Source: Anaerolineales bacterium
GTDB lineage: Bacteria > Chloroflexota > Anaerolineae > Anaerolineales > E44-bin32
NCBI GenBank assembly: GCA_034430695.1
Contig: DAOUEE010000198.1
Location: 739-64,738 of the forward strand
Reading direction: 5' to 3'
DNA length: 64,000 nt
Shown: in pieces, positions 42,282-45,593 of the stretch
How positions within the stretch are numbered: the stretch's first letter is position 1
How the letters are laid out: each line of letters starts with the position of its first letter
Made by a program: the position numbers and the translations under genes
Notes under the pieces: generated by a model
What the model saw: only the letters and a program-made list of their open reading frames with translations
Told to the model about the DNA's origin: nothing
The model's database searches: none

Positions 42282-45200
42282 ATGTCCGTTGATTGGTGGG
42301 GTTTCGACCAGAGTCTGAATTTCAACTTTCCCTCATCAGCGCTCGGTTATCTGGCCGGTGGGACCGCGCTGGCATTGTTGATCGTATTCTACATCCGTTT
42401 TCCAGCGCATTTCCCGGCAACATCGAAGAAAAATAGGGAACGATTTTGGGTGCGTCTTCCTTTTCTGCTCATCGCTGCCCCCATCCTGAGCCTCACGTTC
42501 TTACTGCGGTTTCACGTACCGGGAACGGAAATGCTGGCCTTCGTTCCACAAGAATTGCGCGGACCTGCCGTGGCTGTCTTTGGTGCGATCCCCTGGCTGT
42601 TCGCCGGGGGAGTGTTGGGAATCCGTGAAGCGATCGTCGTCGGGGTTGTCGCCGGTGTGGCGCGCGCTGGTTTCGAAACGTTCAGTGTACTTACCCCCAT
42701 ATTTATGGGCTTGCAGGCAGGTATCGCCGCCTGGTTGATGCGGCGGGATGATGGCGGATTACAGGGGCGATTGCTTCGCAGCCCGTTCATCAGCGGCCTC
42801 GCCAGTGGTGCAGTGTATGCGCTACTTCGAGGCATCGGCATATTCGTCACGATACAAGGTGACTCGTATCGCAGGATAGATATCACTCTTTCCCTGCTCG
42901 GCCTGACGGCATTGGCCACGCTGATCGAAGTGACGATCGGCGGCGCATTTTGTGAACTGATAAAGCGCCAGGCGGCGAATATCTGGTATGTACCGAGACG
43001 AGATAAGACCCGGGGATTTGGTCAATCGCTGGCCGTGCGTTTAAGCGTAGTCCTGCTGTTTTCCGGTTTTATCGCCAGCAGCGTGATTTTGATGGGAGAT
43101 TGGGTCTCGGCAGATCAATCCGCACGGGAAATTCTCACCGAACACATGCAGCAGACCGCCAATCAGGCCAGCGGAATCATCCCCTTTTTCGTCCACACCG
43201 GTAGAGAATACAGCCGCCAGCTGGCGGACGATCTTGCCGTCCGTGTCGGTTCCGGCTCCTGGACGGAAGAACCGTTGGACGCGCTTCTTCGCGCTTATAC
43301 CTTTTTCGAAAGCCTGGCAGTGTACGACCGTGAACTCGGTCTGGAAGTCACCTATCCTGCAGCGACGGAGCCGCCGGGGTATTCCCAGGGCTTTCAGGCC
43401 AACTTGACTGCGGCGTTGAGGGGCGTACCGTCCGAGACGATCGAGTTCGGTTCTGCTGCGGGGACAGGTACCCGCATGGCATTCATCACGCCGGTTCTTC
43501 CTGATGAAAATGGCCAGGCGGTCGGAGTCGTGGTTGGCTGGTCTTCCCTCGAATCCAACCTCATCTTGACGCCATTGGTACAGAGTTTCGACCAGTTTTC
43601 ATACGGATCGGCGTTCGTCACCGACGAGCTGGGCGAAGTCCTGATTCACCCCGAAAGCGACCTGACAAATCGCCAGTTCAATCTTCGTCCTGAAACGAGC
43701 GGAACGGTAAGAATCGAATTTACACAAGACGGTACACGGCAGTTGGTCTACGTCGAACCGATCGAAGAGTACTCCTGGCACGTCGTCGTCATCGTACCGC
43801 TGCGCGAGGTCCATCGTCAGGCGCTCCAGATCACCTTGCGTCTCGGAAGCTGGCTGGTCGTGGTGGGGGTCGTTCTTCTCTGCGCGGTCTTTCTCATCAG
43901 TCATCGTTTGACTCGTCCCCTGCGGAAGATGGCTCAGGTGGCCCAGTCGATCGCGCGCGGAAATCTCGATCAGCCCGTGAAGGCAGACGGTGAGGATGAG
44001 ATTGGCCGCTTCGCTTCCTCGTTCGAGATGATGCGCCGCAGCCTGAAAGCCAGGCTGGACGAGATGGGACTGCTGCTTGACGTCAGTCAACGGCTTTCCA
44101 CCAGCTTCGACCTTACGGATATGCTGCAGCCGATACTGGACGGTATCCGGCAGATCGCCGCTGCCGATCACGTTCGTATCGCGCTGGCTGCTGCGTACGA
44201 TGAAGCCCGATTTACGGGCTTTTCCGCGGGCGACGATCCAGGCAACTGGGCGGCGTTGGACCCGCAGATTCTGGCGCTTTCAAGCCACAGAGGTCGTTTC
44301 GTGCTGGAGAATCCGACGCGCGCCGGTGCGGTTCTCGATCTCACAAATTTGAGCGAGCCGATCGAAACGCTGGCTGCCATGCCGATGAGACACGAGGATG
44401 AATTCGTCGGCGTTCTCTGGCTCGGTCATCGATCGCCTTACGTGATGACTCCGGATGCCCTCAACCTGCTGTCGATCCTATCCGACCAACTGGCAGTGGC
44501 GATAACCAAGGTTCGTTTGTATCAACGTGCGGAGCACGAGCGCATGCGTCTCGTTACCGTTCTGGAAGGCACGCCGGCGGCGGTGATGATGGTCGACTCT
44601 GTGGGCCGGGTTTCCCTTCTCAATCCTGCAGCCGCGAGTCTTTTCAGCGCCGGCGAGCGGGAAAGTCTCGGGAAACCCGTTGCGGATGTCGTCCAGAATC
44701 CGGATCTGCGTACGCTCCTGCTGGATGATGGAGTGACAGAACACGCGACGGAAATCGAAATGGATTCCGGGCGCATCATGTTTGCCTCGGTGACCGACAT
44801 ACGGTACGAGGATGGTGTTCCTGCCGGAAGGATCTGTGTTTTGTGGGACGTATCCCATTACAAAAAGCTCGACGCGTTGAAATCGGAGTTCGTTTCCACG
44901 GTCAGCCAGGACCTGCGTGCGCCGCTCACGTTGATGCGCGGGTATGCAACCATGCTGAGTATGGTCGGGGACGTAAACGAACAGCAGGAGGAGTTTTTAC
45001 AGAAGATACTCTCGAGCATCGACCACATGAGTAAGTTGGTCGACAACTTGCTGGATCTGGGCCGGATCGAGGCCGGCATGGGGTTGAACGTTTCGAGCAT
45101 CCGCATCGAGGCGTTGATCAAGGATGTGGTCGATGCCTACCGCCCCCAGGCGGTGAGCAAACGCGTCGCCATCGAGGTCGAATTGGTAGACGGAATGCAA

Positions 45201-45593
45201 CCCGTCGACGCCGATCCCGGGCTGCTGCGCCAGGCGATATCGAATCTGGTAGACAACGCGTTGAAGTATACGCCCGCGAACGGAAGAGTCGTCGTACGTG
45301 CGGAACAAAGCGAGGAAGATCAAATCATCTCCGTGGCGGATACCGGAGTTGGCATTGCGCCGGCCGATCAGGCACGCTTGTTCGAAAAGTTCTACCGCAC
45401 CAGCGCTACGGACGCGCTCCACGAGAAGGGGTTGGGGCTGGGCCTGGCGATCGTTAAATCGATCGTCGAGCAACACAACGGATGGATTCAGGTCGAGAGT
45501 AGACTCGGACAAGGGAGTACATTCACGATCAGCGTACCGCTGAAATCCGCCGGCGCCGGCGAGGGGAAGAGAACCACGATCAATTTCAGATGA
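42282..45593 (+). CDS. Large membrane sensor kinase (TM bundle, Cache-like, HAMP, GAF, PAS, HisKA, HATPase) with His-to-Gln in the H-box
   Basis: HAMP (LTRPLRKM...GNLDQPV...DEIG), PAS, H-box SQDLRAPL, intact N/G1/F/G2 boxes. Probable start 42282 after GAGG. Confidence 0.88.
   Translation: [1103 protein letters not shown]

What the first reader, a model, noticed from the sequence alone, without database searches (positions are those of the whole stretch)
42282..45593. Pseudo-histidine kinase: phospho-acceptor His replaced by Gln
Seen: the H-box reads [12 protein letters not shown] (CAG at 44907-44909) where HisKA kinases have S-H-[DE]-L-R, while the ATP-binding boxes and all sensory domains are intact in a 1.1k-aa protein. 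Known: Caulobacter DivL lacks the His and acts as a scaffold in the polarity network. Inference: this may be a DivL-like pseudokinase, phosphatase or heterodimer partner for the divergently transcribed receiver-CpaE protein and GAF kinase. It is one base from CAC/CAT, so a strain mutation or assembly error is possible.
Basis: partly seen in the sequence, partly recalled or inferred. Interest (0 to 1): 0.7.

Follow-up and report, generated by a model that had tools for sequence, protein, structure and literature searches.

The report
Conserved His-to-Gln pseudo-histidine kinase
A large membrane sensor kinase of uncultured Anaerolineales bacteria has permanently swapped its phosphorylatable histidine for glutamine while keeping every other part intact, so it is a genuine, selected "dead" kinase of an already known kind, not a sequencing error.

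Summary
The 1103-aa gene (42282-45593, +) has an H-box reading [13 protein letters not shown], with CAG at 44907-44909. It also has intact dCache, HAMP, GAF, PAS, HisKA and HATPase_c domains.

The Gln is not an error or a strain mutation. All Q-clade sequences checked, from independent assemblies (72-100% identity), carry Gln. One uses CAA instead of CAG, and synonymous sites are saturated.

At least 13 positional orthologs (44-49% identity) lie in the same gene order: MutL | GAF-kinase, Sir2, REC-ParA <> HK | ValRS. All of them carry His, so Gln is a derived, fixed state.

The change is surgical. Of 44 DHp positions invariant in the His orthologs, only H876Q differs in the Q clade. DHp and CA evolve as slowly as in the active orthologs (DHp dN/dS about 0.006). 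The H+4 phosphatase residue is Ala, which is ancestral here.

My best reading is a DivL-style pseudokinase: a nucleotide-binding, signal-regulated docking protein for the adjacent REC-ParA regulator, which the neighbouring GAF kinase phosphorylates. It is analogous to DivL, not homologous beyond the general kinase fold. It is a new member of a known kind and of moderate interest.

The parts
42282..45593 (+). Pseudo-histidine kinase gene: 1103 aa plus stop, with the start at the ATG used by orthologs
42282..43061 (+). N-terminal multi-pass membrane region (residues 1-260, about 6-7 hydrophobic segments, no Pfam match); the fastest-evolving part
43122..43790 (+). Extracytoplasmic dCache_1 sensor domain (281-503), flanked by TM segments at about 254-272 and 521-539
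43893..44048 (+). HAMP domain (538-589)
44109..44504 (+). GAF domain (610-741)
44550..44855 (+). PAS domain (757-858); holds 6 of the 20 clade-specific fixed changes (weak enrichment, p=0.026 uncorrected)
44880..45077 (+). HisKA / DHp domain (867-932); the most conserved domain (95-98% identity within the clade, dN/dS about 0.006)
44907..44909 (+). CAG = Gln876 at the phospho-acceptor His position (CAA in ortholog L002)
44919..44921 (+). Ala880 at H+4, in place of the Thr/Asn of the HisKA phosphatase motif; Ala is also present in the closest His-bearing orthologs
   Evidence: PMC3510030
45024..45026 (+). His915 on DHp helix alpha-2 (Gln in 13 of 14 His-bearing orthologs); considered and largely rejected as a relocated acceptor
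45213..45545 (+). HATPase_c catalytic/ATP-binding domain (978-1088) with intact N, G1, F and G2 boxes
42134..42281 (.). 148-bp divergent intergenic region between the REC-ParA operon and the pseudokinase gene
40985..42133 (-). Response regulator with a canonical receiver (DD9-10, D53, T83, K105) fused to a ParA/CpaE/TadZ-like domain whose Walker A is degenerate (GARGGIGTST); the likely docking partner
40197..40988 (-). Sir2/CobB-type NAD-dependent protein deacylase, in the same operon
38987..40279 (-). Soluble GAF-HisKA-HATPase_c kinase with a canonical bifunctional H-box (VHELRTPL); the presumed phosphodonor/phosphatase for the REC-ParA protein. The true start is probably some 50-75 nt downstream of the listed GTG, because orthologs are 405-414 aa.

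Best explanation
The gene encodes a conserved pseudo-histidine kinase of uncultured Anaerolineales (Chloroflexota).

Shown:
- It descends from a catalytically competent, about 1100-aa multi-sensor HisKA kinase (multi-TM, dCache, HAMP, GAF, PAS, DHp, CA).
- In related genomes that kinase sits in the same place and carries His.
- On the stem of this clade the phospho-acceptor His became Gln. That was the only change among the otherwise invariant DHp residues.
- The DHp surface, the ATP-binding domain and the sensor domains stayed under the same purifying selection as in the active orthologs.

Inferred:
- The protein can no longer autophosphorylate at the canonical site or donate phosphate.
- Because H+4 is Ala, it is probably also a poor phosphatase.
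- It most likely works by binding rather than by chemistry. It would be a membrane-anchored, ligand-regulated, nucleotide-binding docking protein for the divergently encoded REC-ParA/CpaE-like response regulator.
- The co-operonic GAF kinase, which has a canonical H-E-L-R-T box, would set that regulator's phosphorylation state.
- Docking would sequester, localise or report the state of the regulator, as DivL does with DivK~P.
For: Gln is fixed and selected:
- All of P0001-P0006, the 12 members of the 90% cluster, and L002, L024 and L032 have SQDLRAPL.
- The codon is CAG, except CAA in L002, and flanking codons differ synonymously.
- dS is saturated between the deep pairs. Gene-wide dN/dS is 0.08-0.11, and HisKA dN/dS is about 0.006.

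Gln is derived:
- L031 (P0084) and 12 further metagenome loci have the same synteny and SHDLR[AS]PL.

No relaxation of constraint:
- At equal overall divergence, DHp and CA identities of Q-Q pairs equal those of H-H pairs.
- The outgroup distance for the DHp is 0.264 for both the Q and the H lineages.
- Only H876Q among 44 H-invariant DHp sites, and only A987S among 46 CA sites, are changed.

Fold and motifs:
- The AlphaFold model of residues 857-1103 has pLDDT 86 and matches HK853, ZraS, WalK, DivL and RetS.
- The N, G1, F and G2 boxes are intact.

Partner:
- The REC-ParA gene is divergently adjacent in every syntenic ortholog locus with upstream flank.
- Its receiver keeps all catalytic residues and is nearly invariant.
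- The GAF kinase keeps VHELRTPL.

Literature:
- HisKA phosphatase activity needs Thr/Asn at H+4. CrdS N375A is dead and H371A is reduced (PMC3510030).
- HK853 H260 and T264 jointly hold the catalytic water, and T264A still binds the regulator (PMC5727384).
- DivL keeps all boxes, lacks both activities and binds DivK~P through the docking surface (PMC4211667).
Against: - No biochemistry, expression data or read data were available.
- In DivL the CA domain is dispensable and binds ATP weakly, and PsmA's CA lacks key ATP-binding residues. Strong selection on an intact ATP-binding domain here may mean that some ATP-dependent chemistry persists, such as trans-phosphorylation or another acceptor.
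- An amide side chain at the His position could still position a hydrolytic water, because NtrB H139N acts as a phosphatase-only protein (10.1101/122606).
- The cognate relationship with REC-ParA rests on conserved adjacency only. The marine His-less relative P0140 lacks the REC-ParA operon next to it.
Confidence: 0.5

Rival explanations
1. Dedicated phosphatase. The Gln amide (Asn in the sister lineage) at the former His position orients the hydrolytic water toward the regulator's Asp~P. This would turn a kinase-biased enzyme into a signal-regulated phosphatase that opposes the GAF kinase.
For: - Every His-less lineage found in the family carries an amide residue: Gln in this clade, P0198 and P0233, and Asn in P0090 and P0140.
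- The DHp docking surface and the nucleotide-binding domain are conserved. Nucleotide stimulates HisKA phosphatase activity (PMC7005713).
- NtrB H139N is used as a phosphatase-only protein (10.1101/122606).
- The His is not strictly essential for HisKA phosphatase activity (PMC3510030; 10.1101/2025.06.23.661182).
Against: - H+4 is Ala. The equivalent CrdS N375A is phosphatase-dead, and in HK853 T264A the proposed catalytic water is lost (PMC3510030, PMC5727384).
- Losing the His itself lowers phosphatase activity in CrdS and HK853.
- NtrB H139N keeps its Asn at H+4 (from my memory of the NtrB H-box), so it is not a true precedent.
- Gln and Asn together account for 3 of the 8 non-synonymous single-base changes from a His codon, so five amide cases are only weak evidence, and they are not all independent.
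Confidence: 0.2
2. Heterodimer or trans-acting partner. The intact CA domain phosphorylates the His of a second, His-bearing family paralogue in a mixed dimer, or the Gln subunit poisons or tunes that paralogue.
For: - The CA domain is fully conserved under purifying selection.
- A paralogous subfamily in another gene context (P0007-P0009, 34% identity overall) has a nearly identical DHp helix 1: [27 protein letters not shown].
Against:
- The 64-kb window has none.
- The neighbouring GAF kinase shares only about 24% DHp identity by my count from alignment A1, so it is an unlikely dimer partner.
Confidence: 0.12
3. It is still a kinase but uses another acceptor, for example His915 on DHp helix alpha-2, which changed from Gln to His in the same clade.
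For: - Position 915 is Gln in 13 of 14 His-bearing positional orthologs and His in all 8 Q-clade sequences.
- In the model's helix register it lies within about one turn of residue 876.
- The CA domain is intact.
Against: - HK853, whose acceptor is H260, has a His at the aligned alpha-2 position.
- His-bearing relatives P0085, P0087 and P0099 also have it.
- The other His-less lineages (P0090, P0140, P0198, P0233) keep Gln there.
- I know of no precedent for alpha-2 phospho-acceptors in HisKA kinases.
Confidence: 0.05
4. It is an artefact, a recent inactivating mutation, or a gene in decay.
For: CAG is one base away from CAC/CAT.
Against: - Gln is present in every Q-clade sequence checked, from independent JGI, ENA, NCBI and Logan assemblies, down to 72% identity. 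A synonymous CAA variant also exists.
- There are no frameshifts or stops.
- dN/dS is 0.08-0.11 gene-wide.
Confidence: 0.02

Closest known systems
DivL of Caulobacter crescentus (pseudo-histidine kinase, PDB 4Q20)
   Same: - It is a class I HisKA-type kinase in which only the phospho-acceptor is replaced, while the H-box context and the N, G1, F and G2 boxes are kept.
- PAS domains lie upstream of the DHp.
- The replacement is conserved across orthologs.
- DivL works by docking a phosphorylated response regulator on the normal DHp surface (PMC4211667).
- It is a top structural match.
   Different: - DivL has Tyr, not Gln.
- DivL is alphaproteobacterial and wired to DivK and CckA.
- DivL's CA domain is dispensable and binds nucleotide weakly, whereas here the CA domain is as constrained as in active orthologs.
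- The sequence match to DivL (E 1.5e-34) is no better than the match to HK853 (E 3e-38), so there is no specific homology.
PsmA of Streptomyces (histidine pseudokinase of the polarisome, PMC12963549)
   Same: - It is a HisKA-type protein that lacks the H-box His and the E/D-x-x-T/N phosphatase motif.
- It is conserved in a lineage.
- It acts through protein-protein interaction.
   Different: - PsmA is a hybrid kinase-like protein.
- Its residue at the His site varies (E, D, Q, V, Y).
- Its CA domain lacks key ATP-binding residues.
- Here Gln is invariant and the CA domain is intact.
His-bearing positional orthologs in Anaerolineales MAGs (e.g. P0084/L031; L034-L048)
   Same: - The domain architecture and length are the same.
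- The flanking genes are the same: MutL | GAF-kinase, Sir2, REC-ParA <> HK | ValRS, Rce1-like, beta-lactamase-like.
- DHp helix 1 is the same, including Ala at H+4.
   Different: They carry His876 and so are presumably active kinases. They share 44-49% overall identity with the window protein.
HK853 T264A / CrdS N375A and H371A laboratory mutants
   Same: The H-box chemistry is comparable. SHELRAPL in 6AZR matches the motif context here, and loss of the His or of Thr/Asn reduces or removes kinase or phosphatase activity while regulator binding persists (PMC5727384, PMC3510030).
   Different: Those are engineered single mutants. Here both positions are non-canonical in a naturally selected protein.

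Membership tests
HisKA-type class I sensor histidine kinase (Pfam PF00512 + PF02518) | DHp domain matching HisKA | tested here: met
   HisKA E 1.5e-18 at residues 867-932; helical hairpin in the AF2 model; top Foldseek hits are HK853, ZraS and WalK
HisKA-type class I sensor histidine kinase (Pfam PF00512 + PF02518) | Phospho-acceptor His in the H-box | tested here: not met
   Gln876 aligns with HK853 H260
HisKA-type class I sensor histidine kinase (Pfam PF00512 + PF02518) | CA domain with N, G1, F and G2 boxes | tested here: met
   HATPase_c E 1e-30; motifs [29 protein letters not shown]
HisKA-type class I sensor histidine kinase (Pfam PF00512 + PF02518) | ATP-dependent autophosphorylation | not testable with these tools
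   Needs a biochemical assay
Bifunctional HisKA kinase/phosphatase (H-[E/D]-x-x-[T/N] motif) | Thr or Asn at H+4 | tested here: not met
   Ala880; the requirement is described in PMC3510030 and PMC5727384
Pseudo-histidine kinase (functional class; about 0.9% of HisKA domains lack the His, 10.1101/2025.06.23.661182) | Kinase fold that lacks a catalytic residue, with the loss conserved by selection | tested here: met
   Gln in all Q-clade sequences checked; CAG/CAA; dN/dS 0.08-0.11 overall and 0.006 in the DHp
Pseudo-histidine kinase (functional class; about 0.9% of HisKA domains lack the His, 10.1101/2025.06.23.661182) | Demonstrated absence of kinase activity | not testable with these tools
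   Inferred only from the missing acceptor
DivL family | Tyr at the His position | tested here: not met
   Gln876; DivL has Y550 (PMC4211667)
DivL family | Alphaproteobacterial ortholog linked to DivK/CckA | tested here: not met
   Relatives are Anaerolineales/Anaerolineaceae MAGs; neighbours are REC-ParA, Sir2 and a GAF kinase; the DivL sequence hit is no better than HK853
DivL family | Binds the phosphorylated regulator on the DHp docking surface without catalysis | not testable with these tools
   This is the proposed mechanism; it needs binding and phosphatase assays
PsmA-type pseudokinase | Hybrid architecture, variable residue at the His site, degenerate CA domain | tested here: not met
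   No receiver domain, invariant Gln, intact CA boxes
Anaerolineales ~1100-aa multi-TM/dCache/HAMP/GAF/PAS kinase ortholog group next to REC-ParA | Same domain architecture and conserved synteny | tested here: met
   Full-length matches for residues 1-1089; identical flanking genes in L021-L025, L030, L031, L034-L048 and L055

The most novel reading that the evidence does not exclude
Replacing the phospho-acceptor His with an amide residue may be a recurrent evolutionary switch in this kinase family. The replacements are Gln here and Asn in the syntenic sister lineage P0090, with Asn and Gln again in P0140, P0198 and P0233. The switch would convert a phosphodonor into something with a new ATP-dependent activity. 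One option is a dedicated phosphatase in which the amide at the old His site holds the attacking water, despite the absent Thr/Asn. Another is a CA domain that now phosphorylates a different acceptor. Either would explain why the nucleotide-binding domain stays under full selection, unlike in DivL or PsmA.
Probability: 0.2. Interest if true: 0.65.

Novelty: new member of a known kind. Interest (0 to 1): 0.4.

Why it matters
Pseudo-histidine kinases are recognised but few are understood; DivL and PsmA are the studied cases. This one offers an unusually clean natural experiment:
- The same gene sits in the same locus with His in many genomes, with Gln in one clade and with Asn in the sister lineage.
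- No other change has occurred in the invariant DHp core.
- The ATP-binding domain is fully conserved.

That makes it a good system for asking what a kinase scaffold is selected for once phosphotransfer is gone. It also shows how a two-kinase, one-regulator module built around a ParA/CpaE-like positioning protein is rewired.

The practical value is limited because the organisms are uncultured. All tests would have to be heterologous.

Tried and rejected
I used independent assemblies instead.

2. 'Ala at H+4 was lost together with the His.' Rejected. The closest His-bearing orthologs also read SHDLRAPL, and across the family H+4 is mostly Ser or Ala.

3. 'His915 on helix alpha-2 is a relocated acceptor (H876Q/Q915H swap).' Largely rejected.
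   - HK853 has His at the aligned position.
   - His-bearing P0085, P0087 and P0099 have it too.
   - The other His-less lineages do not have it.

4. 'Gln and Asn lineages are independent losses.'
   - A first NJ tree suggested independence.
   - A better-sampled bootstrapped NJ tree makes P0090 (Asn) sister to the Q clade at 72%.
   - One old loss versus two losses is therefore unresolved, and long-branch attraction is possible.

5. Clustering of clade-specific fixed changes in the PAS domain. The count is 6 of 31 H-invariant sites (Fisher p=0.026). This is not significant after correcting for eight domains.

6. Accelerated or relaxed evolution after the loss. None was seen in the DHp, and it was marginal in the CA domain.

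7. Search for a cultured relative or source names. All named members are uncultured Anaerolineales, Anaerolineaceae or Chloroflexota MAGs.

8. Link between the pseudokinase and the Asp-less OmpR-like gene 6 kb downstream. I found only a clade-level co-occurrence.

9. A 63-sequence alignment call failed internally. A 27-sequence alignment was used for the structure prediction.

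Full report
**Observation.** The ORF at 42222/42282-45593 (+) is real. Orthologs start at the ATG at 42282 (MSVDWWGF...), which follows a GAGG, giving 1103 aa. The H-box reads [13 protein letters not shown], with Gln876 encoded by CAG at 44907-44909.

Pfam finds dCache_1, HAMP, GAF, PAS, HisKA (E 1.5e-18) and HATPase_c (E 1e-30). A hydropathy scan shows a multi-pass membrane region (residues 1-260) before the dCache domain and one TM segment after it. The alignment to HK853 puts Gln876 exactly on the phospho-acceptor His260 of 'ISHELRTPL'. 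The N, G1, F and G2 boxes are intact.

**Is the Gln an error or a private mutation?** No.
- A protein search found P0001 (99% identity), P0002 (84%), P0003-P0005 (75-76%) and P0006 (72%), all with SQDLRAPL.
- Two GTDB species genomes, an uncultured Anaerolineaceae bacterium and an Anaerolineales MAG (83% and 89%), have it too.
- So do one further metagenome locus (L032) and all 12 members of the near-identical 90% cluster, which come from JGI, ENA, NCBI and Logan assemblies.
- At the DNA level the codon is CAG everywhere except CAA in L002. The flanking codons differ synonymously between orthologs.
- Synonymous sites are saturated between the deepest pairs (dS 1.8 or more). dN/dS is 0.08-0.11 for the gene and about 0.006 for the HisKA domain, which is the most conserved part of the protein at 95-98% identity.

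The independent assemblies make that check unnecessary.

**Polarity and context.** An exhaustive phmmer search of 1.84 billion cluster representatives shows a large family of full-length relatives, at least 150 with E<1e-112. Among the 161 sequences I aligned, counting the window protein, 149 carry His, 10 Gln and 2 Asn.

The closest His-bearing representative is P0084 (48% identity, SHDLRAPL). It lies in exactly the same gene order as the window gene: S41 protease, CoA-transferase, HAD, MutL(+), then GAF-kinase(-), Sir2(-), REC-ParA(-), diverging from HK(+), ValRS(+), Rce1-like and beta-lactamase-like. A metagenome scan added twelve more syntenic loci, 44-49% identical in the kinase and 54-73% (mostly 57-69%) in the neighbours. 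All of them carry His. All Q-clade loci have the same synteny. The Gln protein is therefore the positional ortholog of a His-bearing kinase, and Gln is the derived state. More distant cousins with the same architecture (P0007-P0009, 34% identity) carry His and sit in a different context.

**How clean is the change?** I compared 14 His-bearing positional orthologs with 8 Q-clade sequences.
- 247 positions are invariant in the His group, and 20 of these are fixed to another residue in the Q clade.
- In the DHp, the only one of 44 such positions that changed is H876Q.
- In the CA domain, only A987S of 46 changed.
- At equal overall divergence, DHp and CA identities of Q-Q pairs equal those of H-H pairs.
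- The distance from outgroups is 0.264 for the DHp in both lineages, and 0.39 versus 0.36 for the CA domain.

There is thus neither relaxation nor a burst of change in the catalytic core. The PAS domain next to the DHp holds 6 of the 20 fixed changes, but the enrichment (p=0.026) does not survive correction for multiple domains. The AlphaFold model of residues 857-1103 is confident (pLDDT 86). It shows a canonical helical hairpin plus CA domain, and its best matches are HK853, ZraS, WalK, DivL and RetS.

**Two ideas I tested and dropped.**
- Ala at H+4 (the position of the Thr/Asn needed for HisKA phosphatase activity) looked like a co-loss with the His. The nearest His orthologs also read SHDLRAPL, and across the family H+4 is mostly Ser or Ala. 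The Ala is ancestral.
- Position 915 on helix alpha-2 is Gln in 13 of 14 His orthologs and His in the Q clade, which looks like a His/Gln swap. However, HK853 has His at the aligned alpha-2 position. His-bearing P0085, P0087 and P0099 have it too, and the other His-less lineages keep Gln there. A relocated acceptor is unlikely.

**Other His-less lineages.**
- P0090 reads FISSITNDLRAPL in 4 of 4 cluster members. It is also a positional ortholog with the full synteny. In a bootstrapped NJ tree it is sister to the Q clade at 72%. An earlier, sparser tree had separated them. One old loss followed by a Gln/Asn exchange, or two separate losses, cannot be distinguished here.
- P0140 has Asn in all 10 cluster members that cover the H-box, including marine Anaerolineaceae MAGs. 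It lies near MutL but without the REC-ParA operon.
- P0233 (Gln) sits in another context and has degenerate G1 and F boxes.

Every His-less case carries an amide residue. This is suggestive but weak evidence, because Gln and Asn together account for 3 of the 8 non-synonymous one-step changes from a His codon.

**Partners.** The divergent neighbour (40985-42133, -) has a canonical receiver (DD9-10, D53, T83, K105) fused to a ParA/CpaE/TadZ-like domain. Its Walker A lacks the P-loop Lys (GARGGIGTST). It is a 26%-identical paralogue of the REC-ParA protein in the window's Tad pilus locus. Its receiver is almost invariant across the Gln, Asn and His lineages.

It is followed, with overlapping gene ends in the gene calls of the orthologous loci, by a CobB-type Sir2 deacylase and a soluble GAF kinase with a canonical bifunctional H-box, VHELRTPL. 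The HK<>REC-ParA adjacency holds in every syntenic ortholog locus with upstream flank. This is the only evidence for a cognate relationship.

**Mechanism.** It is shown that the canonical acceptor is gone and that the docking helix, the nucleotide-binding domain and the sensors are maintained by selection. The rest is inferred.

From the literature:
- HisKA phosphatase activity needs Thr/Asn at H+4 and is helped by the His. CrdS N375A is dead and H371A is reduced (PMC3510030).
- HK853 H260 and T264 jointly hold the catalytic water, and T264A still binds the regulator (PMC5727384).
- Nucleotide bound to the CA domain stabilises the regulator complex (PMC7005713).
- DivL keeps all boxes, lacks both activities and senses DivK~P on the normal docking surface (PMC4211667).

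I therefore favour, at about 0.5, a ligand-regulated, nucleotide-binding docking protein for the REC-ParA regulator, whose phosphorylation is set by the GAF kinase.

The rivals are:
- a dedicated phosphatase that uses the amide at the old His site (0.2), disfavoured by Ala880;
- a heterodimer or trans-acting partner of a His-bearing paralogue (0.12), which I could not test;
- another acceptor residue (0.05);
- an artefact or a decaying gene (0.02), which the evidence already contradicts.

**Comparison and novelty.** Pseudo-histidine kinases are a recognised class. About 0.9% of HisKA domains lack the His (10.1101/2025.06.23.661182). DivL and PsmA (PMC12963549) are characterised examples.

This protein works like DivL by analogy but is not a DivL family member. 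It has Gln rather than Tyr, belongs to Chloroflexota, shows no DivK/CckA context, and has no specific sequence affinity to DivL. It differs from both DivL and PsmA in keeping a fully constrained ATP-binding domain and an invariant replacement residue. I class it as a new member of a known kind. It has a particularly clean evolutionary setting but sits in uncultured organisms. Interest is 0.4.

Noticed in passing
window 51462-52148 (-): This is an OmpR-family regulator (Trans_reg_C, E 3e-19). Its receiver-like N-terminus lacks the phospho-acceptor Asp ('LLVIVSTG' where LxxxD is expected) and does not reach the Pfam Response_reg threshold. It is present downstream in all Q-clade loci with enough flank. 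It is absent from that position in the His-bearing orthologous loci, where ferredoxin and pyruvate:ferredoxin oxidoreductase genes follow instead in L031 and L055. A His-less kinase and an Asp-less regulator therefore co-occur at clade level. No functional link is shown.
   Followed up: partly
window 3754-9689 (+): This is a Tad/Flp-type pilus locus. It holds RcpC/CpaB (3754-4911), a REC-ParA CpaE/TadZ-like protein with a canonical receiver (4958-6178), a CpaF/TadA-type T2SSE ATPase (6239-7648) and two T2SSF TadB/C genes (7652-9689). The REC-ParA next to the pseudokinase is a 26%-identical paralogue of the one here (E 5e-30).
   Followed up: partly
window 40985-42133 (-), residues about 136-150: The ParA-like domain of the neighbouring response regulator has a degenerate deviant Walker A, 'GARGGIGTST'. 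Both the signature Lys and the P-loop Lys are missing. It may bind nucleotide without hydrolysing it, or bind none at all, as I recall is reported for TadZ-type proteins.
   Followed up: no
window 38987-42133 (-): A CobB-type Sir2 NAD-dependent deacylase sits between the response-regulator gene and the GAF kinase gene. The gene ends overlap in the gene calls of the orthologous loci. The arrangement is conserved in almost all syntenic loci examined, which hints at a link between acyl-lysine modification and this two-component module.
   Followed up: no
window 40985-42133 (-), residue 25: Receiver helix alpha-1 is nearly invariant across all lineages. It has one clade-specific change, Q25H (LERQGY to LERHGY), in the Q clade only and not in the Asn lineage. 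Together with H876Q and Q915H in the kinase, that makes three His/Gln exchanges in the pair. This may be coincidence.
   Followed up: partly
L057 (GCA_001757145.1, MDTE01167906.1) 8001-11165: A marine Anaerolineaceae relative (the P0140 cluster, including MBS60264.1) has Asn at the His position in every member that covers the H-box. It lies near MutL and S41 protease genes, but the REC-ParA/Sir2/GAF-kinase operon is missing beside it. An alcohol dehydrogenase and a metallo-beta-lactamase-fold gene take its place.
   Followed up: partly
L058 8001-11318: Family member P0233 has Gln at the His position and also degenerate G1 and F boxes ('VTGSSTAITPN', 'RMLDESYRA'). It sits next to a SpoIIE-type phosphatase gene. 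It is a more fully decayed pseudokinase in a different context, known from a single sequence only.
   Followed up: no
window 45903-48746 (+): The valyl-tRNA synthetase ORF is listed as 947 aa from the GTG at 45903, but orthologs are called at 893-895 aa. The real start is probably about 150 nt downstream, which leaves a roughly 460-bp gap after the kinase gene, as in the orthologous loci.
   Followed up: no
window 1309-3105 (+): A separate, ordinary two-component pair lies here: a LuxR/GerE-type response regulator (1309-2046) followed by a DegS-like HisKA_3 kinase (2059-3105).
   Followed up: no
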